A stretch of DNA of 64,000 nt from Squalus acanthias (GCA_030390025.1 CM059431.1:135906001-135970000), one strand, 5' to 3'. Counted from the stretch's first letter, positions 2,832 to 46,196 are shown. A program made the numbers and translations. The notes: generated by a model from the letters alone, not told the origin.

Positions 2832-2862
<31 letters not shown>

Positions 2863-11619: not shown

Positions 11620-12980
11620 CAATCCGGTGCCCCGGGAGGTATGGAGGCTTGTGCTCCTGGGGCTCTCCGGGTCCGCGCAGGCAGAGCCCCACGTATCCCA
11701 GGGGCGCATGCGGTTCGCGAGCGCCCCTGGGATCACATGGGCCGGCCCAACCAATAAAAGAAGGGAATCCCCATTCATACTTCTGGGAGTTGCGTACGTA
11801 CAGAACTCCCATAAGTATGAATGGGGATCACTTAAAAAATACACAATACACATGTAATAATTTTGTTTTTAATTACATATTTAAAATTAATTAAAAAGCC
11901 ATTTAATTAAATTTTTTAAACGAAAATTTAAAATTTTTGGAAAAATAAAAATGGGTCAGAAATTCGGGTCTCCACGGGTGAGTACGCGCTGTGTACTCAC
12001 CCGTAGACCCAACGAAAGTGCCGTTTTCACGCATGCACTGCGCATGCGCTGGAAACCGGAACTTCCGTTCCCCTGAAGGAAGGGGTTCAGAGGTCGAACG
12101 CGTGCGCCGGAGAGGCAGCGCGCACGCAGCAAACTTCGGGTTTTTTTTCAGGTTTCTCCGTGAGGGTAAGTACGGAGAAGCTGCGCAGGAAAAAAGGAGG
12201 CGCAAGGCCTGCTTTTAACAAGGTAAGTGGTGAATTAAGTACAATTTAAACATTTTTTCAACAGGTTTATCTTTTTTACATACTTCAAAGAAAGGTAAGT
12301 TTATTTTTAGCACCGTTAAAAAGTGTAATTAATTTTTTCAAAAGTTTAAATTTTTGTTTAAAGTAGTTAATTTATGTAATTTATAGTTATTTTAAAAATG
12401 TGATGTTTTTTTTTAATTTATTTGAAGTTTTAGTGAGGTTTTGGGGCTGATCTCTATTCATAGATTGGACAGGTCTTCCTGTCAAAATCTATGAATGAAG
12501 ATTCCCTGCTCCGATTGGCTCTCCATGGCCCACGTGATCCCAGGGGACGCTTCGAACTAACTGCGCCCCTGGGATACGCAAGCACTGCGCGCCGGCAGCT
12601 GCAGGAGGCCCAGGAGCCGAATTCCACGCGGGCCTGAAGCACAACGGCAGGCGCGCTAGGTAAGTACATGCGCGATCCTTGCACCCGCGGGAAGCCGGAG
12701 AGCCAAATTTCTGGCCCAATGTATATGTTTTAACAGGGCTAAAAATAAACTTACCTTATTGGACAGTTTTTAATATATAAATAAGTGATAAAATTTTATT
12801 TTTCTATTTTTTAAAACTCTTATGCTGGTAAAAGCAGGCCTTATAGCGGGTGGAGGTTGGGCAAATAGCGCAACTCTCCACCCGCAGAGGCCCATCTCCC
12901 GGGGATGCAGAGGATCTGTCAAGAGGATTCTTAACAGATCGCAAGTTCCATGTTTTCGTGGGGATCGCAAAATATGGCCC
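11620..12980 (-). mobile_element. Non-autonomous Harbinger-type element (hairpin family), left end not found, interrupted by 11953..12717
   Basis: End ...GCAAAATATGGCCC; shares the ATCCCAGGGG/CCCCTGGGAT and ATTCATA/TATGAAT hairpins with the inner element in opposite orientation. Confidence 0.7.
11953..12717 (+). mobile_element. Non-autonomous Harbinger-type MITE (hairpin family), 765 bp
   Basis: TIRs GGGTCAGAAATT / AATTTCTGGCCC; perfect AAT target-site duplication. Confidence 0.92.
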
Positions 12981-15270: not shown

Positions 15271-15299
15271 TAAAAAGCATACGGGATCCTTGGCATATA

Positions 15300-21325: not shown

Positions 21326-21655
21326 AGAATCCCAGTCTAACCTGGCAAAGGAAGGAGGGAAAAGAATGCTAGTATAACCTGGGATAGGATGGCGAAGAAT
21401 TCCAGTAGAACCTGGGGAAGGAAGGAGAAGAATCTCACTAAAACCTGGTGAAAGAAGGATGGAGAAGAATCCTAGTGTAATCAGGGGAAGGAAGGATGGA
21501 GAATGATCCCAGTATAAACTGGGGAACTAAGGAGGGAGCTTGCTAGTCTAATCTGGGGAAGGAAGGAGGAAGAAGTATCCCAGTACAACCTGGTCAAGGA
21601 AGGATGGAGAATGATCCCAGTATGAACTGGGGAAGGAAGGATCGAGAAGAATCCA
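21326..21655. repeat. Degenerate ~34-bp minisatellite
   Basis: GAAT(C)CCAGTATAACCTGGGGAAGGAAGGA-type units. Confidence 0.8.
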
Positions 21656-25468: not shown

Positions 25469-25469
25469 A

Positions 25470-26576
25470 ACGGGGGTAGACTCCCAGTATAGTCTGGGGA
25501 GGGATGGGGGTAGAATCCCAGTAGAGTCTGGGGAGGGACGGGGGTAGACTCCCAGTATAGTCTGGGGAGGGACGGGGGTAGACTCCCAGTATAGTCTGGG
25601 GAGGGATGGGGGTAGAATCCCAGTAGAGTCTGGGGAGGGACGGGGGTAGACTCCCAGTAAAGCCTGGGAAAGGACGGGGGTAGAATCCCAGTATAGTCTG
25701 GGGAGGGTCGGGGGTAGAATCCCAGTATAGCCTGGGAAAGGACGGGGGTAGAATCCCAGTATAGTCTGGGATGGACGGGGGTAGACTCCCAGTATAGACT
25801 GGGATGGACGGGGGTAGAATCCCAGTATTGCCTGGGGAGGGATGGGGGTAGAATCCCAGTATAGTCTGGGGATGGACGGGGGTAGAATCCCAGTATAGTC
25901 TGGGGATGGACGGGGGTAGAATCCCAGTATTGCCTGGGGAGGGACGGGGGTAGAATCCCAGTATTGCCTGGGGAGGGACGGGGGTAGAATCCCAGTATAG
26001 TCTGGGGATGGACGGGGGTAGAATCCCAGTATAGTCTGGGGAGGGACGGGGGTAGAATCCCAGTATAGTCTGGGGATGGACGGGGGTAGACTCCCAGTAT
26101 AGTCTGGGGAAGGACGGACGTAGACTCCCAGTATAACTTGGGGAGGGCCGGGGGCAGAATCCCAGTATAGTCTGGGGAAGGACGGACGTAGACTCCCAGT
26201 ATAACTTGGGGAGGGCCGGGGGCAGAATCCCAGTATAGCTGGGGAGGGACGGGGCTAGACTCCCAGTATAGTCTGGGGAGGGACGGGGGTAGACTCCCAG
26301 TATAGTCTGGGGAAGGACGGGGTAGACTCCCAGCATAGTCTGGGGAGGGACGGGGGTAGACTCCCAGTATAGTCTGGTGAGGGACAGGGGTAAACTCCTA
26401 GTATAACCTGGGGAGGGATGGGGGTAGAATCCCGGTAGAGTCTGGGGAGGGACGGGGGTAGACTCCCAGTATAGTCTAGGGTGGGACTGGGGTAGACTCC
26501 CAGTATAGTCTGGGGAGGGATGGGGGTAGAATCCCAGTATAACTTGGGGAGGGACGACGGTAGAATCCCAGTATAG
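25470..26576. repeat. Homogeneous 34-bp G-rich minisatellite, ~32 copies
   Basis: Unit GGGTAGA(C/A)TCCCAGTATAGTCTGGGGAGGGACGG; period 34 (25545, then 25579). Confidence 0.95.
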
Positions 26577-29500
26577 AAACATAGAAACATAGAAGATAGG
26601 AGCAGGATAGGCCATTCGGCCCCTCGAGCCTGCTCCGCCATTCGATGAGATCATGGCTGATCATCTAAACTCAGTACCCTGTACCTGCCTTCTCCCCATA
26701 TCCCTTGATACCTTTAGCTTTAAGAAATATATCTAACTCATTCTTGAATATATTTAATGACTTGGCCTCAACTACTTTCTGTGGTAGAGAATTCCACAGG
26801 TTCACCACTCTCTGGGTGAAGAAATTCTTCCTCATCCGTTATCCTTAGATTATGACCCCTGGTTCTGGACTCTCCGACCATCGGGAACATTCTTCCTGCA
26901 TCTAGTTTGTCCAGACCTGTCAGAATTTTATATGTTTCGATGAGATCCCCTCTCATTCTTCTATACTCCAGTGAGTATAAGCCCAATCGACCCAATCTCT
27001 CCTCATATGTCATTCCTGCCATCCCAGGTATCAGCCTTGTGAATCTTCGCTGAACTCCTTCCGTGGCAAGAGCATCCTTCCTCAGATAAGGCGACCAAAA
27101 CTGCACACGGTACTCAAGGTGTGGTCTCACCAAGGCCCTGTACAACTGCAGCAGGACATCCCTGTTCCTCTACTCAAACCCTTTTCACTATGAAGGCCAA
27201 CATACCATTTCCTTTCTTCACCGCCTGCTGCACCTGCATGCTTACCTTCAGCGACTGGTGCACAAGGACACCCAGGTCTCATTGCACTTCCCCTTCTCCC
27301 AATCTATTGCCAAATCAGATAATAGTCTGCCTTTCTGTTTTTGACACCAAAGTGGATAACCTCGCATTTATCCATGCTTCTGCCCATTCACCCAACCTGT
27401 CCAAATCATACTGGAGTTTCTCGGTATCCTCCTCGCAGCACACACGCCCGCCCAGCTTTGTGTCATCTGCAAACTTGGTGATGGTGACCCAAAAATTCGT
27501 GAGGAAGCCTTCGTGCGAGGGTAAGGCTTCCCCACGATCTCTCACTGCGCGTTGGCTTTTTCAGTTCCAGCTCGCACGAACTTGATGTTCTGGACAGCTG
27601 CTGTGCTGGGCTTGCGTATCCCACAGGCGTAGTTAATTCGTGCGAGCTGTGGGATCACGTGACTCAGTTAGAGCCAATGGCAGCACACCATCTTCCATTC
27701 ATAACTTTCACATAAGTGCTGTGAAAGCTATGAATACTATAGCCCCCCAAAAGAACAGCTAAACCTCAATTAAATTTGTTTTAAAAACCATCACATTAAT
27801 AAAATAAGTATAGTTAAATAAATTAACCATTTTAAATAAAAAATTAAATTTTTGAAAAAATTAAAAATCTTTTAAAAAGTTATAAAAATAAACTTACCTG
27901 TCTTTAAAGTCTCTAAAAAAGATATACCTGTTAAAAAAAATTCAAAATAATACTTAATTAAGTACTTACCTTGTTAAAAGAGGGTCTTACGCCTCCTTTC
28001 TTTATGTCTAAAATCTTCCATACTTACCTGCGTGCGCAAAGCACTAAGTGCACTGCCTGCGCGCAGCCTGTAGTGGGCACGCGGTTCCCTGAGGAACCGC
28101 CCCCTTTTCCATTCACCAAGTGCCGGTTTCCAGTGCATGCGCAGTGCATGCAGAAAACCGGCAATTGGAGACAGAATACGCGAGAGTACACAGTGCGTAC
28201 TCTCGCGTAGCGGCACTAATTTTTGGGCCATTACATTTAGTTCCCTTATCTAGATCATTAATGTATATTGTGAATAGCAGGGGTCCAAGGACCGATCCCT
28301 GCGGTACCCCACTAGTCACTGCCTGCCACTCGGAAAAAGACCCATTAATTCCTACTCTCTGCTTTCTGTCCGCCAACCTGTTCTCTATCCAAGTCAATAC
28401 CTTGCCCCCAATCCCATGTGCCTTAACTTTACACGCTAATCTCTTATGCGGGACCTTATCGAAAGCCTTTTGAAAGTCCAAATACACCACATCTACTGGT
28501 TCTCCCTTATCTATTTTCCCAGTTACATCCTCAAAAAATTCCAGTAGATTAGTCAAGCACAATTTACCTTTTGTAAATCCATGTTGACTTTGTCCGATCC
28601 TGTCACTGTTTTTCAAGTGCTCAGCTATTACATCCTTTATAATGGACTCTAGCATTTTCCCCACTACCGATGTCAGGCTTACCGGTCTGTAATTCCCCGC
28701 TTTCTCTCTACCACCCTTTTTGAATAGTGGGGTAACATTAGCTACCCTCCAATCCATGGGTACAGTTCCAGATTCCATCGAATGTTGGAAGATGATCAGC
28801 AATGCATCTACTATTTCGAGGGCCACTTCCTTAAGTACCCTAGGATGTAGGTTATCAGGCCCTGGGGATTTATCGGCCTTCAATCCCGTCAATTTCCCTA
28901 ACACCATTTCCCTGCAAATACTGATTTCTTTCAGTTCCTCCCTCTCATCAGACCCTATGTTCTCCAACATCTCTGGGAGGTTATTTGTGTCCTCCTTTGT
29001 GAAGACAGAACCAAAATATGCATTTAATTGGTCTGCCATTTCTTTGTTCCCCATTATAACTTCCCCCGCTTCTGACTACACTTGATTTCACTAATCTTTT
29101 TCTCTTCACATATCTATAAAAGCTTTTACAGTAAGTTTTTATGTTCCCTGAAAGCTTACTTTCATATTCTATTTTCCCCTTCTTAATTAATCCCTTTGTC
29201 CTCCTTTGTTGAATCCTAAACTGCTCCCAATCCTCAGGGTTACTGCTTTTTCTGGTCAATTTATATGCCCTCTCCTTGGATCTTATGCTATCTCTAATTT
29301 CCCTTGTTAGCCATGGTTGAGTCAGCCTTTTTGTTTTATTCTTATGCCACACTGGGATGAACAAATTCTGAAGTTCATCCATGCGGTCTTTGAATGTTTG
29401 CCATTGCCTATCCACCGTCAACCATTTGAGTGACATTCCCCAATCAATCCTACCCAATTCGCGCCTCATACCATCGTAGTTTCCTTTATTTAAATTCAGG

Positions 29501-30022
29501 ACCCAAGTCTCTGATTCAACTACTTCACTCTCCATCCTAATGAAGAATTCTATCATATTATGATCACTCTGACCCAAGGGGCCTCGTCCAAAAAGATTGC
29601 TCATTAATCCTTTCTCGTTACATAATACCCACTCTAAGATGGCCTGATCTCTGGTTGGTTCCTCAACATATTGTTCCAGAAAACCATCCCGTAAACATTC
29701 TAGGAATTCCTCCTCCACAGTATTTTTACTAATTTGGTTAACCCAATCTATATGTAAATTAAAGTCACCCATGATGACTGCTGTGCCCTTACTGCATGCT
29801 TCTCTAATTTCCCTTTTAATGCCGTCCCCAACATCCGTATTACTGTGTGGAGGTCTATACACCACTCCCACTAACGTTTTCTGCCCCTTGTTATTTCTCA
29901 GTTCAACCCATACAGATTCCGCATCATCAGAGCTAATATCCTTCCTTTCAATTGTGTTAATCCCCTCTTTAACCAGCAATGCTACCCCACCTCCCTTTCT
30001 TTTTTGCCTATCTTTCCTAAAT
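26577..30022 (-). mobile_element. 5'-truncated CR1 inserted in the minisatellite; close relative of the 31480 copy
   Basis: ORF2 motifs in ORFs 26768, 28113 and 28981; reverse tail (ATAGAAAC)n. Confidence 0.93.
27486..28229 (-). mobile_element. Divergent hairpin-family MITE within the CR1 RT domain
   Basis: TIRs GACCCAAAAATT / AATTTTTGGGCC; interrupts KGTKCN^ISKFADD. Confidence 0.88.
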
Positions 30023-31479
30023 ATAGCCTGGGGAGGGACGGGGGTAGAATCCCAGTATTGCCTGGGGAGGGACGGGGGTAGACTCCCAGTATAGTCTGGG
30101 GAGGGACGGGGGTAGACTCCCAGTATAGTCTGGGGAGGGACAGGGGTATACCCCCAGTATAACCTGGGGAGGGACGGGGGTAGACTCCCAGCATAGTCTG
30201 GGGAGGGATGGGGGTAGACTCCCAGTATAGTCTGGGGAGGGACAGGGGTAGAATCCCAGTATAACCTGGGCAGGGACGGAGGTAGACTCCCAGTATAACC
30301 TGGGGAGGGACGGGGGTAGACTCCCAGTATAACCTGGGGAGGGACGGGGGTAGACTCCCAGAAAAGTCTGGGGAGGGACGGGGGTAGACTCCCAGTATAG
30401 TCTGGGGAGGGACGGGGGTAGAATCCCAGTATAAACTGGGGAGGGACGGGGGTAGACTCCCAGTATAGTCTGGGGAGGGACGAGGGTAGAATCCCAGTAT
30501 AAACTGGGGAGGGACAGGGGTAGACTCCCAGTATAGTCTGGGGAGGGACGGGGGTAGACTCCCAGTATAGTCTGGGGAGGGACGGGGGTAGACTCCCAGT
30601 ATAGTCTGGGGACGGACGGGGGTAGAATCCCAGTTTAACCTGGGGAAGTAATGAAGGAGAATGCTGACATAATCTGAGGAAGGAATGATGGAGAGGAATG
30701 TGTAACCTGGGGAAGGAAGGATGAAGAACAAACCCAGTATAAACTGGGGAAGGAAGGAAGGAAGGAGAATAATCCCAGTATAACCTTGAATTGAAGCAGG
30801 GTAAAGAATGCCAGTATAGCATGTGGAAGGAAGGAGGGAGAAGAATTCCAGGATCACCTGGGGAAGGAAGGAGGAGAGAATCACAGTCTAACCTGGGGAA
30901 GGAAGGAGGGGAGAATCACAGTCTAACCTGGGGAAGGAAGGAGGAAGAATGCCGATATAAATTGGGGAAAAATGGAGGGGAAAAAAATCCCATTAATCCT
31001 TGAAAAGCCAGGTGGGTGAAGAATCTCAGTATAACCTGGTTAAGCAAGGAGGGAGAAAAATCCCAGTATAGTTGAGGACGGAAGCACGGAGTAGGGTCCT
31101 AGTATAAACCTGCAGAAGGAATGGGTGATAATGCCAGTAGGTCCATGGGAAGGAAGGAGGAATACGAATCCCAGTATAAACTGGGGAAGGAAAGATGGAT
31201 AAGGATCCCAGTATAACTTAGGGAAGGAAGGAAGAAAATGACAGTATAATCTATTAATGGAAGGAGGAAAAAATGCCAGTACGACCTTGGGAAGGAATGA
31301 GGGAAACTGCCAGTAGATCCATGGGAAGGAATGAGGGAGACTAATCCCAGTATAACCTGAAGAAGGAAGGAGCAAATTTGCCAGCATAACCTGCAGAAGG
31401 AAGGAGGGAAAATCATAGTATAACCTGGGGAAGGAGGGAGCAAGTTGGCCAATATAACCTGCGAAGGAAGGAGGGAGTA
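30023..31479. repeat. 34-bp minisatellite: ~18 homogeneous copies to ~30645, then degenerate units (resumes 36031-36180)
   Basis: Same unit as 25470, grading into the GGAAGGAAGG variant. Confidence 0.9.
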
Positions 31480-31790
31480 GAGGCGGCAGACCTGGGTGGA
31501 GCGGCAGCGGCAAGGCGGAGCAGATAAAAGAGGCAGCGGCGACCAGGTAGGCCCACAGAGGCAGCGGAACTGGGTGGAGCGGCAGTGGCGAGGCGGAGCA
31601 GATAAAAGAGGCGGCGGCGACCAGGTAGGCCCACAGAGGCGGCGGACCTGGGTGGAGCGGCAGCGGCGAGGCGGAGCAGATAAAAGAGGCGGCGGCGACC
31701 AGGTAGGCCCACAGAGGCGGCGGACCTGGGTGGAGCGGCAGCGGCGAGGCGGAGCAGATAAAAGAGGCGGCGGCGTCCAGGTAGGCTTAC
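31480..31790 (+). repeat. ~4 x 78-bp CpG-rich monomers at the CR1 5' end
   Basis: 26-aa periodicity in ORFs 31413 and 31496. Confidence 0.9.
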
Positions 31791-32056
31791 CAATCTGAGC
31801 CCCCAGAGCGGGAGAGAGAGAAGTAAAAAATAATCAAAGTGTGACGTCACCGGAAAGCAGGTAAGTGATTGGTTGGTGAGTATTTCTCTCTTTCTCCTTT
31901 TTCCATACTTAAATTCTGTGGTTTATAGTTTCTAGAGTCTCTGTGGTGTAGCGGGGACTGCTGTTAAGCAAGGGTCCATAAGTATATCATTTAATTGAAG
32001 TGAAATTGGTGGGATTCATTTAGTTTAATTTTAATTAATTAATTAAAGGGTAAGTC

Positions 32057-32996
32057 ATGGCAGGAGAGCTCCGCCCCGTGATATGCTCCTCCTGCTATAT
32101 GTGGGAAACCAGGGACGCTTCCTGTATCCCTGACGACCATGTGTGTGGGAAATGTATCCAGCTGCAGCTACTGACGGACCGCATTGCGGTGCTGGAGCTG
32201 CGGATGGATGCATATTGGAGCATTCGCGACGCTGAGAACGTCGTGGATAACACGTTTAGTGAGTTGGTCACACCGCAGGTAAAGGGTGTACAGGCAGGAA
32301 GTGAATGGGTGACCACCAGGCAGAGTAAGAGGTGCAGGCAGGTAGTGCATGGGTCCCCTGTGGCCATCCCCCTCTCAAACAGATATACCACTTTGGATGC
32401 TGTTGGGGGGGATGACTTATCAGGGGAAGGTGGCAGCAGCCAACTTCCTGGCACCATGGGTGGCTCTGCTGCACAGGCTGGGAGGAAAAAGTGTGGAAGA
32501 GCTATAGTGATAGGGGATTCAATTGTAAGGGGAATAGATAGGTGTTTCTGCGGCCGCAAATGAGACTCCAGGATGGTGTGTTGCCTCCCTGGTGCAAGGG
32601 TCAAGGACGTCTCGGAGCGGCTACAGAACATTTTGGAGGGGGAGGGCGAACAGCCAGTTCATAGGCATCAACGATATAGGTAAAAAACGGGATGAGGTCC
32701 TAAAAGCAGAATATAGGGAGTTAGGAGGTAAATTAAAAAAGAGGACCTCAAAGGTAGTAATCTCAGGATTGCTACCAGTGCCACGTGCTAGTCAGAGTAG
32801 AAATAGGAGGATATTTCAAATGAATACGTGGCTAGAGGAATGGTGCAAGGGGGAGGGATTCAAATTCCTTGGACATTGGAACCGGTTCTGGGGGAGGTGG
32901 GACCAGTACAAACGGGACGGTCTGCACCTGGGCAGGGCCGGGACCGATGTCCTAGGGGGAGTGTTTGCGAGTGCTGTTGGGGAGGGTTTAAACTAA
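32057..32996 (+). pseudogene. CR1 ORF1 (CxxC Zn-finger, leucine zipper, SGNH/GDSL esterase)
   Basis: CSSC...CGKC, IGDSIVRG and DGLHL motifs; internal stop at 32561 and a small deletion near 32660. Confidence 0.9.
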
Positions 32997-33118
32997 AGTG
33001 GCAGGGGGTTGGGTCCCTGAGATGGGAGACAGAGGAAAGGGAAACAAGGATAAAAGCTAAAGACAGGAAGGAGAAAAACAAAAGTAGAAGGCAAAGAACT
33101 CAACGGTTTAAATGAAAC

Positions 33119-35927
33119 ATGGTCACAGTAAATAATAATTCATATAGGTCAGAGAGCGTTAAAAAAACAAGCCTGAAGGCTTTGTGTCTTAATGCAAGGA
33201 GCATTCGGAACAAGATGGATGAATTAGCTGCGCAAATAGAGGTAAATGAATACGATTTGATTGGGATTACAGAAACCTGGCTCCAGGGTGGCCAAGGCTG
33301 GGAACACAACATCCAGGGTTATTCAATATTTAGGAAAGATAGGCAAAAAAGAAAGGGAGGTGGGGTAGCATTGCTGGTTAAAGAGGGAATTAACACAATT
33401 GAAAGGAAGGCTATTAGCTCTGATGATGTGGAATCTGTATGGGTAGAACTGAAAAATAACAAGGGGCAGAAAACGTTAGTGGGAGTGGTATATAGACCTC
33501 CAAACAGTAATACGGAGGTTGGGGACGGCATTAAAAGGAAAATTAGAGAAGCATGCAGTAAGGGCACAGCAGTCATCATGGGTGACTTTAATTTACATAT
33601 AGATTGGGCTAACCAAATTAGTAAAAATACTGTGGAGGAGGAATTCCTAGAATGTTTACGAGATGGTTTTCTGGAACAATATGTCGAGGAACCAACCAGA
33701 GATCAGGCCATCTTAGACTGGGTATTATGTAACGAGAAAGGATTAATTAGCAATCATGTTGTACGAGGCCCCTTGGGTCAGAGTGATCATAATATGATAG
33801 AATTCTTCATTAGGATGGAGAGTGAAGTAGTTGAATCAGAGACTAGGGTCCTGAATTTAAATAAAGGAAACTACGATGGTATGAGGCGCGAATTGGGTAG
33901 GATTGATTGGGGAATGGCACTCAAGGGGTTGACGGTGGATAGGCAATGGCAAACATTCAAAGACTGCATGGATGAACTACAGAATTTGTTCATCCCAGTG
34001 TGGCATAAGAATAAAACAAAAAGGGTGACTCAACTGTGGCTAACAAGGGAAATTAGGGATAGCATAAGATCCAAGGAGAGGGCATATAAATTGGCCAGAA
34101 AAAGCAGTAACCCTGAGGATTGGGAGCAGTTTAGGATTCAACAAAGGAGGACAAAGGGATTAATTAAGAAGGGGAAAATAGAATATGAAAGTAAGCTTGC
34201 TGGGAACATAAAAACTGACTGTAAGAGCTTTTATAGATATGTGAAGAGAAAAAGATTAGTGAAATCAAGTGTAGGTCCCTTGCAGTCAGAAGTGGGGGAA
34301 GTTATAATGGGGAACAAAGAAATGGCAGACCAATTAAATGCATATTTTGGTTCTGTCTTCACAAAGGAGGACACAAATAACCTCCCAGAGATGTTGGAGA
34401 ACATACAGTCTGATGAAAGGGAGGAACTGAAAGAAATCAGTATTTGCAGGGAAATGGTGTTAGGGAAAATGACGGGATTGAAGGCCGATAAATCCCCAGG
34501 GCCTGATAATCTACATCCTAGGGTACTTAAGGAAGTGGCCCTCGAAATAGTAGATGCATTGCTGATCATCTTCCAACATTCGATGGAATCTGGAACTGTA
34601 CCCATGGATTGGAGGGTAGCTAATGTTACCCCACTATTCAAAAAGGGTGGTAGAGAGAGAGCGGGGAATTACAGACTGACATCGGTATTTGGGAAAATGC
34701 TAGTGTCCATTATAAAGGATGTAATAGCTGAGCACTTGAAAAACAGTGACAGGATCGGACAAAGTCAACATGGATTTACAAAAGGTAAATCGTGCTTGAC
34801 TAATCTACTGGAATTTTTTGAGGATGTAACTGGTAAAATAGGCTTTCGATAAGGTCCCGCATAAGAGATTAGCGTGTAAAGTTAAGGCACATGGGATTGG
34901 GGGCAAGGTATTGACTTGGATAGAGAACTGGTTGGCGGACAGAAAGCAGAGAGTAGGAATTAATGGGTCTTTTTCCGAGTGGCAAGCAGTGACTAGTGGG
35001 GTACCACAGGGATCGGTCCTTGGACCCCAGCTATTCACAATATACATTAATGATCTAGATAAGGGAACTAAATGTAATATCTCCAAGTTTGCAGATGACA
35101 CAAAGCTGGATGGGAGTGTGTGCTGTGAGGAGGATACCGAGAAACTCCAGGATGATTTGGACAGGTTGGGTGAGTGGGCAGAAGCGTGGCAGATGCAATA
35201 TAACGTGGATAAATGCGAGGTTATCCACTTTGGTGTCAAAAACAGAAAGGCAGACTATTATCTGAATGGCAATAGATTGGGAGAAGGGGAAGTGCAACGA
35301 GATCTGGGTGTCCTTGTGCACCAGTCGCTGAAAGTAAGCATGCAGGTGCAGCAGGCGGTGAAGAAGGCAAATGGTATGTTGGCCTTCATAGCGAAAGGGT
35401 TTGAGTATAGGAACAGGGATGTCCTGCTGCAGTTGTACAGGGCCTTGGTGAGACCACACCTTGAGTACTGTGTGCAGTTTTGGTCGCCTTATCTGAGGAA
35501 GGATGTTCTTGCCATGGAAGGAGTTCAGCGAAGATTCACAAGGCTGATACCTGGGATGGCAGGAATGACATATGAGGAGAGATTGGGTCGATTGGGCTTA
35601 TATTCGCTGGAGTATAGAAGAATGAGAGGGGATCTCATCGAAACATATAAAATTCTGACAGGTCTGGACAAACTAGATGCAGGAAGAATGTTCCCGATGG
35701 TCAGAGAGTCCAGAGCCAGGGGTCATAATCTAAGGATAACGGGTAAGCCATTTAGGACAGAAATGAGGAAGAATTTCTTCACCCAGAGAGTGGTGAACCT
35801 GTGGAATTCTCTACCACAGAAGGTAGTTGAGGCCAAGTCATTAAATATATTCAAGAATGAGTTAGATATATTTCTTAAAGCTAAAGGTATCAAGGGATAT
35901 GGGGAGAAGGCAGGTACAGGGTACTGA
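33119..35927 (+). pseudogene. CR1 ORF2 (AP endonuclease + reverse transcriptase)
   Basis: 577-aa and 338-aa ORFs separated by a deletion/frameshift near 34840. Confidence 0.93.
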
Positions 35928-36371
35928 GTTTGGCTGATCAGCCATGATCTCATCGAATGGCGGAGCAGGCTCGAGGGGCCGAATGGCCTACTCCTGCTCC
36001 TATCTTCTATGTTTCTATGTTTCTATGTTTCCAGTATAACCAGGAGAACGATGAGTGAGAATCCCAGTATAACCTGGGGTAGGAAGGAGGGAGAAGAATG
36101 CCAGTATAATCTGAGGATGATTAGGAGGGACACAAATGGTAGTATAACCTGGAAGGGGGGAGGAGAAAAATGCCAGTAAACCTTTTTGTATCTATGCACT
36201 ACTTTTTTGCTGATTTGTGTACATGGACACATAACACCCTTTGCTCCTCCACAGCTCCTAGTCTCGCATCTTGAACAAAATAGTCTAATTTGTCTTTCTC
36301 AGATCCACAGTCAATGACCTCAGACTTCCCCATATTGAACTCTGTTTTCCTTACTTTTGGCCATTCACTAT

Positions 36372-36830
36372 TGGAATCATAGAATCATAGAAATTTACGG
36401 CACAGAAGGAGGCCATTCAGCCCATTGTGTCTGCCAGCTAAAAAAGAGCTAGCCTGCCTAATCCCATTTTCCAGCTCTTGGTCCGTAGCCCTGCAGGTTA
36501 CGGCACTTCTAGTGCCTATCCAAGTACTTTTTAAATGTGATGAGGGTTTCTGCCTCTACCACCCTTTCAGGCAATGCAATCCAGACCCACACTGCCCTCT
36601 GGATGAAAAGATTTCTCCTCAACTCCCCTTTAATTCTTCTACCAGTTACTTTAAATCTGTGCCGCCTGGTTATTGACCTCTCTGCTGAAGGAAATAGGTC
36701 CTTCCTATCCACTCTGTATAGGCCTCATATAATTTTATACACCCTAATTAGGTCCCCCCTCAGTCTCCTCTGTTCCAAAGAAAACAACCCCAGCCGATCC
36801 AATCCAATCATAGCTAAAATTCTCCAGTCT
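36372..36830 (-). mobile_element. CR1 3' fragment
   Basis: ORF 36509; reverse tail ATCATAGA. Confidence 0.8.
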
Positions 36831-36945
36831 TGGGTTCATCTCCCTTCTAGATCTTTAGCCAATGGTTTTAAATCTATGACCTCTAGTTATTGAACGACTC
36901 ACCAGAGGGAACAGTCTTTCTCTATCTACTCAATCAAAACCCCTC
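36830..36945 (-). mobile_element. CR1 fragment that continues at 50033..51355
   Basis: Joining the flanks restores ...VFKKMEGF... on the minus strand. Confidence 0.75.
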
Positions 36946-37387
36946 GGGGGAGAAATTGAGTGCCTTTGCGCCTCTCATTAGCGTCTCCGGGGGCACCAAC
37001 GAGGCGCTACCAGCTTTGCGACTGGGAGCGGTGCAAGTACCGACAGCTGCGAGATTGAGCTGGAGGTTTGCATCATCCAGGTGCGCAGTGCCCTGGCAGC
37101 GCCCTGGCTCAGAAATTCACTCTCACGCCCTGCCTGAGCGCCTGCCATTAGCAACGACAGGTACAGGAGGCGGTTTGCAGTCAGATGAGTGCTGGAGGAG
37201 CGCTATATAAAGGGGTCAACTTCCGGGTATTTTTTGTCTGCAAACAATGCTGCCTTGTCAGTTTGACACAAGCAGACAGGCGTTTTGACCCATTTGACAG
37301 TTTTCAACTTGAAGGAGTATTCTGGCTGAGAAAAATGTATCACTTTCATTTGGGTTACATTTGATAGTGCAACATTTCCATCATTTA

Positions 37388-38555
37388 ATGGGGGCTGTAC
37401 TGGCACTGGACTTCGCCTTCCAGCATCACAGCGGAGGCAGAGACAAAGACTGCAAAATGTGGCCAGAGGGAGGAGGGCCAACAGGGCTCTCAACAGGAGG
37501 CCTTACCCTCCCAGGGTATTCCGGAAGCACTTCTCCTACATTCATCTCTCAGAGGAGCAGTGTCTTAGAAGGCTCCGTTTCAGCAAGGAGGTGGTCACAG
37601 AGCTTTGCCACCTCCAGCAGCCAGACTTCCAGTCTCAGCTGAGGACCAGGACGTCTCTCTCAGTGGCAGTTAAGGTCACAGTCACTCTCAATTTCTACGC
37701 CAGCAGTTCCTTCCAGGGGATATTGCAAACATTTCACAGTTCGCCATCCATTGCTGCATCTGGGAGGTAACAACGCTCTCTACAGAAGGAGAAGGGAGTA
37801 CATCTCATTCCCCATGACCAGAGAGAAACAGGATGAACGCTCATGTGGCTTTGCAAGGAGAGCGGCCTTCCCTATGGTTCAGGGCGCCATTGACTGCACC
37901 CACGTGGCATTGCGGGCACCTCATCACAATGCAGAGGTGTTCCACAACTGCAAAGGCTACCACTCTCTGAATGTTCAGTTGGTGTGCGACCACAGACAGC
38001 GCATCCTCGCTATCCTGGCAGCAGCCATGATGCATTCATCCTGCGATGGACCGGTGTCCCAGCACTGTTCCACCCACGACATGAAGCTCGCGGCTGGTTG
38101 CTCGGAGACAAGGGTTATCCACTCGCCACCTGGCTGATGATACTCCTCCGCAACCCCAACACTCCTGCTCAGCATGCATACAATGACAGCCATAGCGCCA
38201 GCAGGAACCTGATCGAACAGACTATCAGCATGCTAAAGCAATGGTTCCGCTGCCTTGACCGCTCTGGAGGAGCCTTGCAGTACGCCCCTTATCGAGTCTC
38301 TCTTTTCATCGTTGTGTGCTACATGCTGCACAACCTGGCCATTCTGAGGGCCCAGCCATTGGCACCAGGGATTGCAGGTCCACCTCAGGAGGAAGAAGAG
38401 GGAGAGGAGGAGGAGGAGGAGGCAGAGGAGGAGGAGGAAGAGGGAGAGGAGGAGGAGGATGAAGAGGAAGACCAGCAGCAATGGAGGAGGGAGCCACTCA
38501 ATCTTGCTTCTGCAAGGGCCGTTCATGAGCGTCTAATTAGACACCGCTTTCAATT
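37388..38555 (+). pseudogene. Harbinger B transposase, several frameshifts
   Basis: GAIDCTH, HDAFI, LLGDKGY and RNLIEQTI motifs; long poly-Glu tract. Confidence 0.9.
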
Positions 38556-39693
38556 AATGATATATCACATGGCATTTGCGCAGCACAACCACATCATTAC
38601 ATCAAGCTCAATCCAGGGCATTCTGGAGGGGGAGGGTGAACAGCCAGTTGTCGTGGTGCATATAGGTACCAACGATACAGGTAAAAAACGGGATGAGGTC
38701 CTAAAAGCTGAATATAGGGAGTTAGGAGGTAAATTAAAAAATAGGACCTCAAAGTTAGTAATCTCAGGTTTGCTACCAGTGCCACGTGCTAGTCAGAGTA
38801 GAAATAGAAGGGTATTTCAGATGAATACGTGGCTAGAGGAATGGTGCAAGGGGGAGGGATTCAAATTCCTGGGACATTGGAACTGGTTCTGGGGGAGGTG
38901 GGACCAATACAAACTGGCGGTTTGCACCTGGGCAGGACCTGGACTGATGTCCTAGGGGGAGTGTTTGCTAGTGCTGTTGAGGAGGGTTTAAACTAAAATG
39001 GCAGGGGGTTGGGAACCTGTGCAGGGAGACAGAGGAAAGGGAAGCAAGGATAGAATCAAAAGACAGGAAGGAGAAAAGCAAAAGTGGAAGGCAGAGAAAT
39101 CAAGGGTGTAAATCAAACAGGGCCACAGTAAATAATAATTCTAAAAGGACTAAGAGTGGTAAAAAAAACAAGCCTGAAGGCTTTGGGGTAAAAATTCAGT
39201 TGGTTGCGCCTCCCGTTAGCGCCTTAAGAGGGCGCTAATGGGGCGCAAAGCCGCTAACGCCCGGGCGCAGCGATGTTTGCGCCGCTCGGGAACTTAACTA
39301 GAGATTGTGCAGCGGCGCTAAACCTTACCGCTGCGACCACCTGCGCGCGCAGATTATGACGTCATTCCATGGTGCAACGCCCTTGTGGCGCCCCGGAGCG
39401 CAAATTGAGTGGCGCCCCCTGCCTTACCGCCTGGCGCATCCAACGACCGGAAGACTGGAATGCTATCAATCGCTGTGGGGCTGGGGGTGGCGCTATTTAA
39501 AGGGGGCCTCTTCCTGTCTTTTTCTGTGGTCGACATTTTTGCACCACTCGTTCTGAGAGAGAGAGAGATTCGGAGAGAGAGAAAGAGAGACTTCTACATT
39601 GACTCAACGCTTTGTGAGGTAGTTTTGCCTATTGATCCTAACTTCGCTGGTACTTTAGTTGCTGTCCTTCATTACTTTGCTTGCAAAGAGAAT

Positions 39694-40854
39694 ATGGGGG
39701 CTGCACTGATTGGGGGCGTCGTCCTGCTCCAGCTGAATCGGAGGATACAGAGACGCAGAGAGAGAGTGGCAATGATGGCCAGACGGAGGAGGGCCATCAG
39801 GCGTATGTACAGGAGAGCTTACCCTCCCAGGGTATATCGTGAACAGCTCTCCTACATCCATATGTCTGAGGAGCTGTGTTTGCGAAGGCTGCGATTCAGC
39901 AAGGAGGTGGTCACTGAGCTCTGCCACCTGCTGCAGCCAGATCTGCAGCCTCAACTGAGGTCCAGGACGTCTCTGTCGGTGGCAGTGAAGGTCACAGTGG
40001 CTCTGAACTTTTACGCTACTGGCTCATTTCAAGCTGCTGCTGGGGACCTCGCCAATATCTCCCAGTTCGCGGTGCATTGCTGCATCCGTCAGGTCACAAA
40101 TGCCCTCTTTAAAAGGAGACGAGAGTTCATCTCTTTCCCCATGACCCCAGACAAGCAGCGTGACCGCGCTCTGGGCTTTGTGAGGGTAGCGGGCTTCCCC
40201 ATGGTGCAGGGCGCCATTGACTGCACGCATGTGGCTTTGCGTGCTCCGCATGAGAATGCCGAGGAATTCCGGAACAGAAAGGGGTTCCATTCCTTGAATG
40301 TCCAGTTGGTCTGTGACCACAGACAGCTGATACTCGCTGTCAATGCCCAGTATCCTGGCAGCTGCCACGATGCTTTTATCCTGCGCCAGACTACTGTGGC
40401 AGAACTTTTCGAGGCACCGCATCAGCCAGTTGGTTGGCTTCTCGGGGACAAGGGGTATGCATTGAGCACCTGGCTGATGACACCGCTCCGTACGCCCAAC
40501 ACCCCTGCTGAGCTGCGGTACAATGAGAGCCATCAAGCTACCAGGAACACCGTGGAGCGCACAATCGGCATGCTGAAGCAACGGTTCCGCTGTCTCGACC
40601 ATTCTGGAGGAGCCCTGCAGTACTCGCCTGAGCGAGTATCGAACTTCGTAGTCGTGTGCTGCATGTTGCATAACATGGCAATCCTCAGGACCCAGCCAAT
40701 GCCACCAGGCCTTGGAGCACCACCAGAGGAGGAGGAGGAAGAGGAGGAAGAGGACGCGGAGGATGATCATCAGCAGCACCAAGGCGGGAGGGCAGCCCAC
40801 AATGGTCAAACTGCAAGGGCCGTCCGTCAACGGCTAATAGCAAGCCGCTTCTAG
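39694..40854 (+). CDS. Intact Harbinger DDE transposase (~386 aa)
   Basis: Uninterrupted frame MGAALIGG...RLIASRF* with GAIDCTH, HDAFI, GDKGY and RNTVERTIG; TATTTAAA box at ~39494 upstream. Confidence 0.92.
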   Translation: MGAALIGGVVLLQLNRRIQRRRERVAMMARRRRAIRRMYRRAYPPRVYREQLSYIHMSEELCLRRLRFSKEVVTELCHLLQPDLQPQLRSRTSLSVAVKVTVALNFYATGSFQAAAGDLANISQFAVHCCIRQVTNALFKRRREFISFPMTPDKQRDRALGFVRVAGFPMVQGAIDCTHVALRAPHENAEEFRNRKGFHSLNVQLVCDHRQLILAVNAQYPGSCHDAFILRQTTVAELFEAPHQPVGWLLGDKGYALSTWLMTPLRTPNTPAELRYNESHQATRNTVERTIGMLKQRFRCLDHSGGALQYSPERVSNFVVVCCMLHNMAILRTQPMPPGLGAPPEEEEEEEEEDAEDDHQQHQGGRAAHNGQTARAVRQRLIASRF

Positions 40855-41148
40855 GGCCCCTGCCATTGCTAACAACATTAATGAACCCAGCACGCAACCC
40901 CTAAGCCGGCCAAGGCACCAATAATTCCAACCACCAACCATGTATATTTTGAATACAGAAACTTATTTATTTTACAAACTCTGTGTGTGTCAATTCCTCA
41001 TGACAAACTCATAGAAATAAACACAAAAAAACAGTCAATAACATAACTGGTTCTCACAACCTGGAGATAATGTCCAAAACACTAAACAAAAGTTGGACCA
41101 TGAACCTCGACCTTTAATAAAAAAATGACCAGCATTTTGTCACACCTC

Positions 41149-42973
41149 CTACTTTTTGCCCTTCGAGGGTGATCTCCTTCCCTTGCGCACTTCCCCCCTT
41201 CTAACCCTACTGCTCCTCCGTAATGAGACCTCAGTGGCTGCAGCAAGGCTGGTGGAAGGCTGCTGCTCGTCAGACCCTGACACTGCAGATGCCCCTGAAG
41301 GACGGCCTCGACCACTTCTGGGCCTGGAGGGCCCGGCTGCAGACTGCACCAACTCTGCATGGGCGGCAGCAGTCTGTCCTACAGGCGGTGGCAAGTGCAG
41401 TGGAGAAGTGACAGTGTTGGCAGCAGGAATGCTGTCATCGTGAGAGAGGACAGCAACTCCCTGCTCGCCCGACACACTGGCACTCCCATGGGGCAGCACT
41501 TCAGCATCCGGAGCAATCTGCTGGAGAACAGATTGCTGGCCTGCTGCGGCGCGGTGACAGCCCCGGGGACATGTGCACGAACCATCGAGGTTGGCAGCAG
41601 TCTGTGCTCGCGTGGCCTCAATCTGAGTCTGTATGAGAGCAGTCAGAGATGGGATCACGGCAGCCAGTGACTGAATTGCAGCACTAAGCGTTAGTGTGGC
41701 ATCCGCCTGTGCTACAGCGAAGTGCTCCACACTCCTTGCCAGTGACTCAATGCATTCGGGCACCCTTCCCACTGCACCCATGAGCTCAGTGTGCATGCCC
41801 ACCGCCTGGGTGTTCATTTCTGCGATCAGCCGCTCCTCCTCTGCGTCCATTGCAGTAGGAGTGTCTGGCATACTCTCCCTCTGGGGAGAAGGCCCCCGTT
41901 CTTCCCTACCCCCCCCCCCCATGGCGTTGCTGCAGCCTGCTGGGTCCTGGAGCTTCACCCTCATCAGACCCTTCCCCCCTGCTCCCCTCCAGGGAAGGCG
42001 TGTTCCCAGTGTGGGCATGGGCTTCCTCGGGAGAGGGTGGCACTGATGCTCCGGCTTCCTCTTCCTCCTCAGCTGCAGCATCACTCCCAGTGGCAGCTTC
42101 AGGGCCCGTCTCCTCAGCTGGTGAATCACCATCTGAAAGCAGGGAGGTACAAGAGTGGCTTTAGCGTGAGGACAGGGTGGCAGTAAGGGAGGAATAAGTG
42201 CAGCGAGTTAGCAAGTTGGATTGAAAGTGTCAAAGGCTGGTGTTGTGAGGGACAAGTGGAAGGACAGAGGACAAAAAGGTGATGACCTTACCATTGCTGT
42301 CCAGAACGGGGTCGGCGTCTCCAGTGGCGACGGGACCGATCACCCGGCTTGCCACAATCCTCTGGACGCGCTCCTCCAGATCGCTGAGGGGTTGCAGCTG
42401 AGGCCGACCTCCACCTGTCCGTTGCTGCTGTCTCCGATTATGCGCCAGCTTGGCCTGTAAGAAAAAGGACAGCATCTGAGTAAATATACAGCCATGGTCT
42501 TGCCTGATGTGCCTCCCATAGGTGAATAGCCCTTACTGTATACAGCCATGGTCTTGCCTGATGTGCCTCCCATAGGTGAATAGCCCTTACTGTATGCAAA
42601 GTGTGGAATGTGTGTGTGTTTCATGAAAGGGCCATAGGTGTTGGATGAGTGTTGTGCATTGGGGTTTTAAGACCCTCTGGCCATAGAGTGAGGTTGAGAT
42701 GGAGGGATGGAGAGGTATTGAGAAAAAGCCACTCACCCTGACGACCCGAGTGAGGTCGTTGAACTTTTTGCGGCATTGAGTATGGGTCCTGGGCACCATG
42801 CTCCTGGAGGAGACGCTCTGAGTCACCTCCCTCCACACTGTTCTGAACTCGCGTGGCAAAGGCCTCCTGCCACTCTCAGGGAAGAGCATACATCTTCTGC
42901 GCTTGACCGCGCCAACCAGAGCATCCAAGGCCCGCTCGGTGAAGCGATGAACGCGTTCTCTCACCCTCTCCAT
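41149..42973 (-). CDS. Harbinger Myb/SANT-like protein, 3 exons (42973-42737, 42454-42292, 42132-41149), single +1 frameshift at C12 run
   Basis: GT-AG sites conserved; spliced length 1384 nt (3n+1); C12 at 41909-41920 versus C5 in other copies. Confidence 0.8.
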
Positions 42974-45283
42974 CCTTGGCAGCAAAATGGATTCACAGGT
43001 CTCTCCAGGCCGAGATTCAAGGCTGCAATGAGCAGGGTGTGGCTGGGGAGCAAGTTGGCCCCCCCCGCTTTAAGAAGTGGCCGGCACCAGTGTGTCTGTG
43101 TTCCCTCGCTAACTGGCAGCAGCTGCGCTGCGCTCGCGCGCTGAGTTAGCGCCTCACTCCTTGGCCTTTGCGCCTTAAGACAGGTGTGCAGCGCCTGATT
43201 TAGCGCTCCACTCACCTCCCGGGGCGGTAAAAGTGAAGTTTCCAGTCAGTGCCGACAATTAGCGCCAGGCACTAATATTTGCGTCCAGACGATATGTGCG
43301 CCCCAAATGGGGCGCGACCTAATTTTTACCCCTTTGTGTCTTAATTCGAGGAGCATTTGTAATAAGGTGGATGAATTAGCTGCGCAAATAGATGTAAATG
43401 GATATGATATAATTGGGATTACGGAGACATGGCTCCAGGGTTACCAAGGCTGGGAATTCAACATCCAGGGGTATTCAATATTCAGGAAGGACAGGCAAAA
43501 AGGAAAAGGAGGTGGGGTAGCATTGCTGGTTAAAGAGGAGATTAACACAATAGTAAGGAAGGTTATTAGCTCTGATGATGTGGAATCTGTATGGGTAGAG
43601 CTGAGAAATACCAAGGGGCAGAAAACATTAGTGGGAGTTGTATACAGACCCCCAAACAGTAATGCTGAGGTTGGGGATGGCATTAAATGGGAAATTAGAG
43701 ATGCGTGCAATAAGGGCACAGCAGTTATCATGGGTGACTTTAATCTATATATAGATTGGGCTAACCAAATTAGTAACAATACTGTGGAGGAGGAATTCCT
43801 AGAGTGTATACGAGATAGTTTCCTGGACCAATATGTCGAGGAACCAACTAGAGATCAGGTCATCTTAGACTGGGTATTATGTAATGAGAAAGGATTAATT
43901 AGCAATCTTGTTGTGCGAGGCCCCTTGGGGAAGGGCGATCATAATATGATAGAATTCTTCATTAAGATGGAGAGTTAAGTAGTTGACTCAGAGACTAGGG
44001 TCCTGAATTTAAATAAAGGAAACTACGATGGTATGAGGCGCAAGTTGGCTAGGATGGACTGGGGAGCATTACTTAAAGGGTTGATGGTGGATAGGCAATG
44101 GCAAACATTTAAAGATCGCATGGATGAACGACAGAATTTGTTCATCCCTGTTTGATATAAAAATAAAACAAAAAAGGTGACTCAACCGTGGCTAACAAGG
44201 GAAATTAGGGATAGCATAAGATCCAAGGAGAGGGCACATAAATTGGCCAGAAAAAGCAGCAAACCTGAGGATTGGGAGCAGTTTAGGATTCAGCAAAGGA
44301 GGACAAAGGGATTAATTAAGAGGGGGAAAATAGAGTATGAGAGTAAGCTTGCAGGGAACATAAAAACTGACTGTTAAAGCTTCTATAGATATGTGAAGAG
44401 AAAAAGATTGGTGAAGTCAAGCGTAGGTCCCTTTCAGTCAGAATCAGGGGAATTTATAATGGGGAACAAAGAAATGGCCGACCAATTAAATACATACTTT
44501 GGTTCTGTCTTCACAAAGGAGGACACAAATAACCTCCCAGAGATGTCGGGGAACATAGGGTCTAATGAGAGGGAGGAATTGAATGAAATCAGTATTTGTA
44601 GGGAAATGGTGTTAGGGAAATTGATGGGATTGAAGGCCGATAAATCCCCAGGGCCTGATAATCTACATCCTAGGGTACTTAAGGAAGTGGCCCTAGAAAT
44701 AGTAGATGCATTGCTGGTCATCTTTCAAAATTCTGTAGACTCTGGAACAGTTCCCATGAATTGGAGGGTAGCTAATGTAACCCCACTATTTAAAAAAGGT
44801 GGTAGAGAAAAAACGGGGAATTATAGACCGGTAAGCCTGACATCGGTACTGGGTAAAATGCTAGTGTCCATTATAAAAGATGTAATAGCAGAGCACTTGG
44901 AAAACAGTGACAGGATCGGAGAAAGTCAACATGGATTTACAAAAGGTAAATCATGCCTGACTAATCTACTGGAATTTTTTGAGGATGTAACTGGTAGAAT
45001 AGATAAGGGAGAACCAGTAGATGTGATGTATTTGGACTTTCAGAAAGCTTTCGATAAGGTCCCGCATAAGAGATTAGCGTGCAAAGTTGAAGCACATGGG
45101 ATTGGGGGTTAGGTACTGATTTGGATAGAGAACTGGTTGGCAGACAGCAAGCAAAGAGTTGGAATAAACAGGTCTTTTTCCGAGTGGCAGGCAGTGAGTA
45201 GTGGGGTACCGCAGGGATCGGTGCTAGGACCCCAGCTATTCACAATATATATTAATGATATAGACGAGGGAACTAGATGCAAT

Positions 45284-46045
45284 GGGCCAGAAATTCGGCA
45301 CTTGCCGGGTGAGTACGCACTGTGTACTTACCCGTAAGGCCAGCTGAAGTGTCGGTTTCCTGCATGCACTGCGCATGCGTGGGAAACCGCAACATCCGTT
45401 CCCCTGAAGGGAGGGGTTCAGAGGTGAACCGTGTGCGTGGGAGAGGCTGCGCACACGCAGCGAATTTCGGGTTTTTTTCAGGTTTCTCCGGGAAGGTAAG
45501 TATGGAAGAAGCTGCGCTTTTAAAAAGGAGGCGCAAGACCCATTTTTAACAAGGTAAGTGGTTAATTAATTACAATTTAAAAAAAATTTCAACAGGTTTA
45601 TCTTTTTTAGATACTTTAAAGAAAGTTAAGTTTATTTTTAGCACTGTTAACAAGTATTTTAATTTTTCAAAATTGTAAATATTTGTTTAAAGTAGTTAAT
45701 TTATTTAACTTAGTTATTTTAAAAATGTGATGGTTTTTTTTTAATTTATTTGAAGTTTAGGTGTTGTTTTGGGGCCGATTTCAATTCATAGATTTGACAG
45801 GTCTTCCTGTCAAATCTATGAATGAAAAATGGTCTGCTGCCATTGGCTCCCCATGGCCCACGTGATCCCAGGGGACGCATCGCACTAACTACGCCACTGG
45901 GATTCACAAGCACTGCGCACCGGCAGCTGCAGGAGGCCCAGGAGCTGAAGTCCCCGTGGGCCCAGAGGTCAACGGCAGGCGCGGTAGGTAGGTGCGCGTG
46001 TGATCCTTGCACCCGCGGGAAGCCAGGGAGCCGAATTTCTGGCCC
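45284..46045 (+). mobile_element. Hairpin-family MITE within the CR1 RT domain
   Basis: Perfect TIR GGGCCAGAAATTCGGC; AAT/ATT flanks; colinear with 11953..12717. Confidence 0.92.
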
Positions 46046-46196
46046 ATTACTCTAAGTTTGCAGATGACACAAAGCTGGGTGGGGGTGTGTGCTGTGAGGA
46101 GGATGCAGAGAAACTCCAGTATGATTTGGACAGGTTGGGTAATTGGGCAGATGCATGGCAGATGCAGTATAATGTGGATAAATGCGAGATAAATGC

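What the first reader, a model, noticed from the sequence alone, without database searches (positions are those of the whole stretch)
27486..46045. Two divergent MITEs sit at the same nucleotide of the CR1 RT gene
Seen: the elements at 28229-27486 and 45284-46045 both insert immediately after the AAT codon in GT(K/R)CN^ISKFADD, in the same orientation relative to CR1. The two MITEs are clearly divergent (TIR GGCCCAAAAATT versus GGGCCAGAAATT) and their CR1 hosts are different variants. The close sister of the first host has an empty site at 35076-35078. Known: Harbinger3_DR prefers a ~17-bp palindromic target. Inference: independent site-specific insertions, i.e. a DNA transposon that uses, and inactivates, an abundant LINE next to its catalytic FADD motif.
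Basis: partly seen in the sequence, partly recalled or inferred. Interest (0 to 1): 0.75.

Follow-up and report, generated by a model that had tools for sequence, protein, structure and literature searches.

The report
Harbinger landing site inside shark LINE
Two distantly related miniature cut-and-paste transposons sit on the same three bases of two copies of a common retrotransposon in a shark-like genome, likely because that spot spells the symmetric landing pattern such transposons prefer, which would make it an ordinary hot spot rather than an attack on the retrotransposon.

Summary
Observation confirmed. E1 (28229-27486) and E2 (45284-46045) both begin right after the AAT of CR1 ..C-N^I-S-K-FADD; 35076-35078 is the empty site. 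The insertions are independent: MITEs 69.7% identical, hosts 91%, E1's host 98% like the empty copy, and a clade of filled hosts is rejected (p-AU 4e-9). Contigs of 2 of 4 public runs, under two organism labels, show further TIR-bearing junctions at exactly 35076/35078.

CR1-specific targeting and inactivation are not supported. A third family copy (11953-12717) lies outside CR1. Both hosts carry other lesions. A second site in the same CR1 (33181-33183) was hit twice by other Harbinger elements. These two sites are the only 2 of 3959 CR1 positions that match RRRNRY-NWN-RYNYYY, my post hoc purine/pyrimidine reduction of the published Harbinger3_DR target. Other Harbinger-type ends in the window share the pattern.

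Best reading: a sequence preference, multiplied by LINE copy number, gives a passive hot spot, a known kind. Genome-wide occupancy and peak height were not measurable because no genome is held.

The parts
27486..28229 (-). MITE E1, 744 bp, 12-bp TIR, non-coding, inserted after AAT of CR1 RT
45284..46045 (+). MITE E2, 762 bp, perfect 16-bp TIR, 69.7% identical to E1, same CR1 triplet
11953..12717 (+). MITE E3, 85% identical to E2, perfect AAT duplication, nested in the AT-rich core of a related MITE-like element, not in CR1
26573..30024 (-). CR1 host H1 of E1; 5'-truncated inside the endonuclease domain, sits in a 34-bp minisatellite
32029..36027 (+). CR1 copy H0, empty at both hot spots; esterase ORF1 (PF13472), endonuclease (PF03372), RT (PF00078), octamer tail
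35070..35084 (+). Empty RT hot spot AAATGT-AAT-ATCTCC (duplicated triplet 35076-35078); perfect match to RRRNRY-NWN-RYNYYY
33175..33189 (+). Empty second hot spot GAAGGC-TTT-GTGTCT at the ORF2 start; the only other perfect match in H0
38619..46188 (+). CR1 host H2 of E2, interrupted at both hot spots, 3'-truncated near 46188
39185..43332 (+). Autonomous-type Harbinger element (DDE_Tnp_4 transposase on +, Myb/SANT ORF on -), TTT duplication, at the second hot spot of H2
61031..62255 (+). Non-autonomous Harbinger derivative at the same second hot spot of CR1 copy H4 (59864-64000); ends 79-81% identical to the 39185 element, 92-95% to the copy at 22881-23774

Best explanation
Two MITEs only 70% alike inserted separately on the same AAT triplet of two CR1 copies, likely because a Harbinger-type transposase prefers a 15-bp symmetric purine/pyrimidine pattern that this spot of the CR1 RT gene happens to spell. 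Steps: (1) shown: E1, E2 and E3 are non-coding elements with GG-starting TIRs, and E3 has a 3-bp duplication. (2) Inferred: a Harbinger transposase plus Myb/SANT protein moves them in trans; the cognate partner is not identified. (3) Shown in this window, post hoc: the preferred flank is RRRNRY-NWN-RYNYYY, and the CR1 holds exactly two perfect matches, each hit twice. (4) Inferred: CR1 is highly repeated and the codons of K-C-N-I-S keep the pattern under every silent change except at Ser (48 of 144 encodings perfect), so the genome offers very many copies of one good target, and different MITE subfamilies land there repeatedly. (5) Inferred: damage to CR1 is incidental, since the hosts seen are defective anyway.
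For: Independence: identities; tree with H1+H0 100/100 and H2+H4 98/96; filled-host clade rejected, p-AU 4.2e-9 (5 rows). Recurrence: loose ends with TIR-like consensus behind 35078 and before 35076 in X1 (2 and 4 contigs) and X15 (9 and 12 contigs, agreement 0.55 and 0.62, so diverse interiors). Motif: 2 of 3959 positions of H0 are perfect with W centre, and both are the reused sites. 1 of 192 palindromic R/Y patterns of that form fits both sites, and it is the reduction of AAACACCWGGTCTTT (consensus from PMC3016246 passage). 16 other Harbinger-type ends score a mean of 3.81 of 5 against 2.50 (0 of 200,000 draws; 13 of 16 with W centre). The 8 ends not scored before the pattern was fixed score 31 of 40, P = 0.0006. 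35076 is the only one of 34 perfect empty sites in the window with an AAT/ATT centre. Extended preference is a superfamily trait (PMC2836001 passages).
Against: The R/Y reduction was chosen after looking at the two CR1 sites. Literal identity to the Harbinger3_DR consensus is only 7 of 15 at the RT site, and 146 of 3959 CR1 positions score higher. E3's own site scores only 7 of 10. I picked the 16 ends by eye; 5 are single ends without a proven partner, and paired ends are not independent. A perfect site at 17806 is empty. The junction rows were not among the 6 rows shown for X5 or X20 (210 rows hidden), nor among the 24 rows shown for the whole CR1 (11,153 hidden). E1 and E2 share nothing beyond the TIR with the window's autonomous element. 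The right-hand duplications of E1 and E2 are altered.
Confidence: 0.82

Rival explanations
1. The MITE family is specialised on the CR1 RT site (by longer sequence recognition or tethering), uses it as a safe harbour and knocks out active LINEs.
For: 2 of 3 family copies in the window sit there; further junctions under two organism labels; both lie in CR1 sense and carry 2-3 GGTAAGT donor-like motifs.
Against: E3 is outside CR1. H1 lacks its 5' half and H2 has other lesions. Unrelated Harbinger elements reuse a second CR1 site. The same pattern flanks non-CR1 insertions. Orientation is only 2 of 2.
Confidence: 0.08
2. One ancestral insertion into a CR1 copy was later multiplied by segmental duplication or by retrotransposition of the MITE-bearing CR1.
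For: Same position and orientation; both in one 64-kb window; some contig junctions could be such duplicates.
Against: MITEs are 30% apart while hosts are 9% apart; E2 is closer to the non-CR1 copy E3 (85%) than to E1; H1 groups with the empty copy; clade rejected at p-AU 4e-9.
Confidence: 0.03
3. One old insertion whose interior was later swapped by gene conversion or gap repair from another MITE subfamily, with precise excision producing the empty copies.
For: Harbinger-type elements generally excise precisely (PMC4561436 abstract). Both right junctions are altered, as after local repair.
Against: It needs a shared filled ancestor of H1, H0 and H2, then loss in H0. 1795 of 1843 contigs laid in X1 fit the empty site without a loose part (contigs are not copies). 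It does not explain the motif match or the second hot spot.
Confidence: 0.04
4. The bias comes from DNA shape, chromatin or local hopping in a Harbinger-rich region, not from base recognition.
For: The pattern is purine/pyrimidine only, which can reflect bendability; the window is dense in Harbinger-type ends (22 listed).
Against: Regional bias cannot give single-nucleotide reuse. A shape readout is a variant of the best explanation, not an alternative to it.
Confidence: 0.03

Closest known systems
Harbinger3_DR / Harbinger3N_DR of zebrafish (PMC3016246 and PMC2836001, passages read; the primary paper PMC2290759 is not held)
   Same: TIR element with 3-bp duplication inside a 15-bp palindromic preference. 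The CR1 RT site has the same purine/pyrimidine letter at all 12 flank positions as AAACAC-CWG-GTCTTT.
   Different: Centre is AAT, not CWG; only 7 of 15 letters identical; the preference looks looser (E3 site 7 of 10); the partner transposase is unknown; shark-like host.
TE-in-TE insertion hot spots of the human genome (Levy, Schwartz, Ast, PMC2836564; abstract and passages read)
   Same: A DNA transposon with a near-palindromic preference reuses fixed positions of an abundant older repeat (hAT/MER1 in MIR3 positions 154 and 160; MER types in L1).
   Different: Here a Harbinger-type MITE in a CR1 RT gene; the site lies in coding sequence whose codons keep the pattern.
PHIS groups Pangu (ANT duplication), NuwaI (CWG) and PIF/Harbinger (TWA) (Han et al., PMC4482050; Results section read)
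   Same: GG/GGG-starting TIRs, 3-bp duplication. AAT fits the Pangu rule; the window's autonomous element has the DDE + Myb/SANT layout of PIF/Harbinger and Nuwa.
   Different: Duplications in this window vary (AAT, ATT, TTT, ATA, AAG), so no single group rule fits; the species listed for Pangu include no vertebrate.
Obligate target-specific elements such as Dada DNA transposons and Tx1-clade LINEs (recalled, not from a call)
   Same: Repeated use of one position in a multicopy sequence.
   Different: As recalled, those sit almost only in their target; here 1 of 3 copies is elsewhere and the motif is short and degenerate.

Membership tests
Harbinger-type (PHIS superfamily) MITE | Short TIRs starting with G/GG | tested here: met
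   12-16 bp TIRs in E1, E2, E3
Harbinger-type (PHIS superfamily) MITE | 3-bp target duplication | tested here: met
   Perfect AAT in E3; contig loose ends behind 35078 and before 35076; altered on the right side in E1 and E2
Harbinger-type (PHIS superfamily) MITE | Short and non-coding | tested here: met
   744-765 bp; longest stop-free stretch 84-99 aa; no Rfam match near threshold for E2
Harbinger-type (PHIS superfamily) MITE | Target preference extending beyond the duplication | tested here: met
   window only, pattern post hoc
Harbinger-type (PHIS superfamily) MITE | Mobilised by a DDE transposase plus Myb/SANT protein with matching ends | tested here: inconclusive
   Such an element with a similar TIR is in the window but shares no sequence with E1/E2 beyond the TIR
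PIF/Harbinger group in the strict sense (PMC4482050) | TWA duplication | tested here: not met
   AAT in all three copies
NuwaI group (PMC4482050) | CWG duplication | tested here: not met
   AAT
Pangu group (PMC4482050) | ANT duplication | tested here: met
   AAT
Pangu group (PMC4482050) | Transposase in the Pangu clade, second ORF without Myb | not testable with these tools
   Cognate autonomous element not identified; no genome held
CR1-type LINE (host) | Esterase ORF1, APE endonuclease + RT ORF2, octamer 3' tail (feature list recalled) | tested here: met
   PF13472, PF03372, PF00078; TTCTATGT tail at 36005-36031
Obligate repeat-targeting transposon (Dada/Tx1 kind, recalled) | Nearly all copies at the one target | tested here: inconclusive
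   1 of 3 copies is elsewhere in the window, which counts against; no genome-wide count possible

The most novel reading that the evidence does not exclude
This MITE family has tuned its target to a spot in the CR1 RT gene that silent mutation can hardly escape, and inserts in sense with a conserved row of GGTAAGT splice-donor-like motifs, so that it works as a genome-wide brake on the dominant LINE: one transposon class policing another.
Probability: 0.07. Interest if true: 0.75.

Novelty: new member of a known kind. Interest (0 to 1): 0.27.

Why it matters
It shows that the long Harbinger target preference, worked out for one zebrafish element, is active in a shark-like genome and strong enough to give single-base hot spots in an abundant LINE. 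In practice, shared MITE-in-CR1 insertions here are prone to homoplasy and are poor markers of common descent or dating, and repeat libraries may get false CR1-MITE chimeras. The codon-held target is a small, testable twist. It would be important only if occupancy exceeded what the motif predicts.

Tried and rejected
No whole genome is held, so flank mapping, a logo and occupancy could not be computed.

Laying contigs on the whole empty CR1: the 24 loose-end rows shown were dominated by the 3' tail, 3' UTR variation and a deletion private to H0. Neither hot spot appeared, 11,153 rows were hidden, and the tool left some ends uncounted, so this is uninformative.

X5 and X20: no TIR row among the 6 shown each; this is not evidence of absence.

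Pattern scans for the MITE end and the CR1-MITE junction: 0 hits in metagenome contigs and 0 in viral contigs.

Protein read-through of RT into the MITE: 0 of 267 proteins examined.

Rfam on E2: 2 chance-level rows, E > 0.6.

The literal Harbinger3_DR consensus as predictor was rejected (7 of 15). A Spy-like insertion without duplication was rejected by E3 and the contig ends. No look-alike earlier findings by sequence.

Literature: 10 searches gave no listing that by title or abstract start describes this MITE family or this CR1 site. Repbase/Dfam and subscription journals were not searchable, and no supplements were read (those of PMC4482050 list families and could hold a relative).

Full report
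Setting. The best hits of the window's transposase are proteins of sharks and rays, so the genome is shark-like. No whole genome is held. The window is a nest of CR1-type LINEs, Harbinger-type elements and minisatellites.

Observation. E1 (28229-27486, minus) and E2 (45284-46045, plus) start right after the AAT codon of C-N in C-N-I-S-K-F-A-D-D, nine bases before the F codon, in the same orientation relative to CR1. The copy H0 is empty at 35076-35078. The right flanks are not clean duplications: E1 is followed by ACC within a 6-base tandem repeat that also covers the changed TIR base, and E2 by ATT. I read these as later local repair or mutation (inference). A third copy, E3 (11953-12717), is 85% identical to E2, has a perfect AAT duplication, and lies in the AT-rich core of a related MITE-like element, not in CR1.

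Independence. E1 and E2 are 69.7% identical, while their hosts are 91.3% identical upstream and E1's host is 98.1% identical to the empty H0. A tree of five CR1 copies pairs H1 with H0 (100/100) and H2 with H4 (98/96). Forcing the two filled hosts together costs 271 log units, p-AU 4.2e-9. A single insertion later duplicated is rejected.

Recurrence beyond the window. Contigs of four public runs were laid on 35030-35125. In X1, 2 contigs leave the CR1 behind 35078 and 4 enter it before 35076, with TIR-like consensus that differs from E1 and E2 past the TIR. In X15, which has another organism label, the counts are 9 and 12, with agreement of 0.55 and 0.62 over 30 letters, so the interiors are diverse. 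The three-base overlap gives the AAT duplication. Among the 24 rows shown, TIR-like loose ends occur only at these two places. Limits: X5 and X20 show no such row among their 6 each, 210 rows are hidden, X1 may be the window's own sample, and contigs are not copies. Partly laid contigs were 48 of 1843, 82 of 2474, 279 of 8798 and 74 of 4066. On the whole CR1 the site was not among the 24 rows shown. Recurrence is therefore shown; peak height and occupancy are not.

A second hot spot. H2 also carries a 4.15-kb element at 39185-43332 with a DDE_Tnp_4 transposase and a Myb/SANT ORF, flanked by TTT at the start of ORF2. The sister copy H4 (96-97.5% identical to H2) carries a different, 1.2-kb non-autonomous element at the same TTT (61031-62255). 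Its ends are 79-81% like the first element but 92-95% like a copy at 22881-23774 in unrelated flanks. So this CR1 family has two positions, each hit twice.

Why these positions. Harbinger3_DR integrates into the palindromic consensus AAACACCWGGTCTTT (PMC3016246, passage). An extended preference of 9-15 bp is described for the superfamily (PMC2836001, passages). Taken literally the consensus is a poor predictor: the RT site has 7 of 15 letters and 146 of 3959 CR1 positions score higher. Reduced to purines and pyrimidines it becomes RRRNRY-NWN-RYNYYY. I made that reduction after seeing the sites. Exactly 2 of 3959 positions of H0 match it perfectly, and they are the two reused sites. Only 1 of 192 palindromic patterns of that form fits both, and it is this one.

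Test on other ends. Sixteen other Harbinger-type ends in the window, picked by eye from TIR scans, average 3.81 of 5 against a background of 2.50 (0 of 200,000 draws), with a W centre in 13 of 16. The 8 ends not scored before the pattern was fixed give 31 of 40, P = 0.0006; the 8 ends of the four pairs with matching duplications give 32 of 40, P = 0.0001. Five of the 16 lack a proven partner end. The window holds 34 perfect empty sites, as chance predicts (39.5 expected), and 35076 is the only one with an AAT or ATT centre. Against a strict rule: E3's site scores 7 of 10, and the perfect site at 17806 (centre AAC) is empty. The codons of K-C-N-I-S give a perfect match in 48 of 144 synonymous encodings, which is every encoding with a TCY serine. 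This would keep the target in place across CR1 subfamilies; more distant RT copies in the window have other residues there and score 4-9.

Inactivation. H1 begins inside the endonuclease domain, joined directly to a minisatellite, so it was likely dead on arrival. H2 has 4 stops in its best frame before the site, the Harbinger at the ORF2 start and a cut 3' end. The order of events in H2 is unknown. Closeness to FADD needs no special explanation, since the other hot spot is 1.9 kb away.

Comparison. It works like Harbinger3_DR target selection. It produces the TE-in-TE hot spots described for human repeats, including DNA transposons at fixed positions of older repeats (PMC2836564, abstract and passages). 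By duplication it fails the TWA rule of strict PIF/Harbinger and the CWG rule of NuwaI, and fits the ANT rule of Pangu (PMC4482050, Results). The group cannot be fixed without the partner transposase; E1 and E2 share only the TIR with the window's autonomous element. PMC9179366 (passages) detected no Harbinger in elephant shark and asked for other cartilaginous fish to be checked. Ten searches found no paper on this family or site (listed under Tried and rejected). Earlier notes of this scan on the same genome reach the same reading. I saw them after my own tests; they are unchecked AI notes, not support, and their occupancy figure of one in four to one in three was not testable here.

Verdict. 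It is most likely a passive Harbinger hot spot in an abundant LINE (0.82). New member of a known kind; interest 0.27.

Noticed in passing
window 27486-28229, 45284-46045, 11953-12717: The MITEs carry 3, 2 and 4 sense copies of GGTAAGT (splice-donor consensus) against about 0.05-0.09 expected from shuffles, at aligned positions despite 30% divergence; also one in E3's host element (12755). Splice donors or protein-binding sites; untested.
   Followed up: partly
window 33181-33183, 39185-43332, 61031-62255: Second CR1 hot spot at the ORF2 start, hit by an autonomous-type Harbinger and by a different non-autonomous element.
   Followed up: yes
window 1275, 51898, 59164: Three Harbinger-type ends abut the same AGTC-ATA flank, which looks like a LINE octamer tail repeat; a likely third class of hot spot.
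   Followed up: partly
window 39409-40854: Uninterrupted Harbinger transposase ORF (PF13359, E 3e-40); three copies of the element at 88-91% identity (1275-5473, 39185-43332, 55967-51898). Relatives are annotated as 'putative nuclease HARBI1' genes in shark and ray proteomes, likely transposon copies.
   Followed up: partly
window 27470-27490 and 46046-46056: Right junctions of E1 and E2 are altered: a 6-base tandem duplication over E1's TIR end, and in E2 five bases that equal the reverse complement of the usual left flank; possible templated repair after abortive excision.
   Followed up: partly
window 11150-11380 (-): Open frame rich in Y, G, N, Q (NQNWNQGY...), resembling the low-complexity tail of an hnRNP D/AB-like protein (resemblance recalled); possibly an exon or retrocopy.
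   Followed up: no
window 25327-26576 and 30022-31444: 34-bp minisatellite arrays flank the truncated CR1 H1 on both sides; related units lie at 21326-21654 and after H0's tail (36060-36183).
   Followed up: no
window 13733-18846: Element with GxGCTCGATTTT TIRs and ATT duplication enclosing a divergent CR1 copy (15302-18756).
   Followed up: partly
window 1275-6290 and 61031-61694: Composite Harbinger structures: an autonomous-type copy fused to a non-autonomous copy lacking its first 80 bp within one ATA duplication; a 332-bp tandem duplication of a left end.
   Followed up: no
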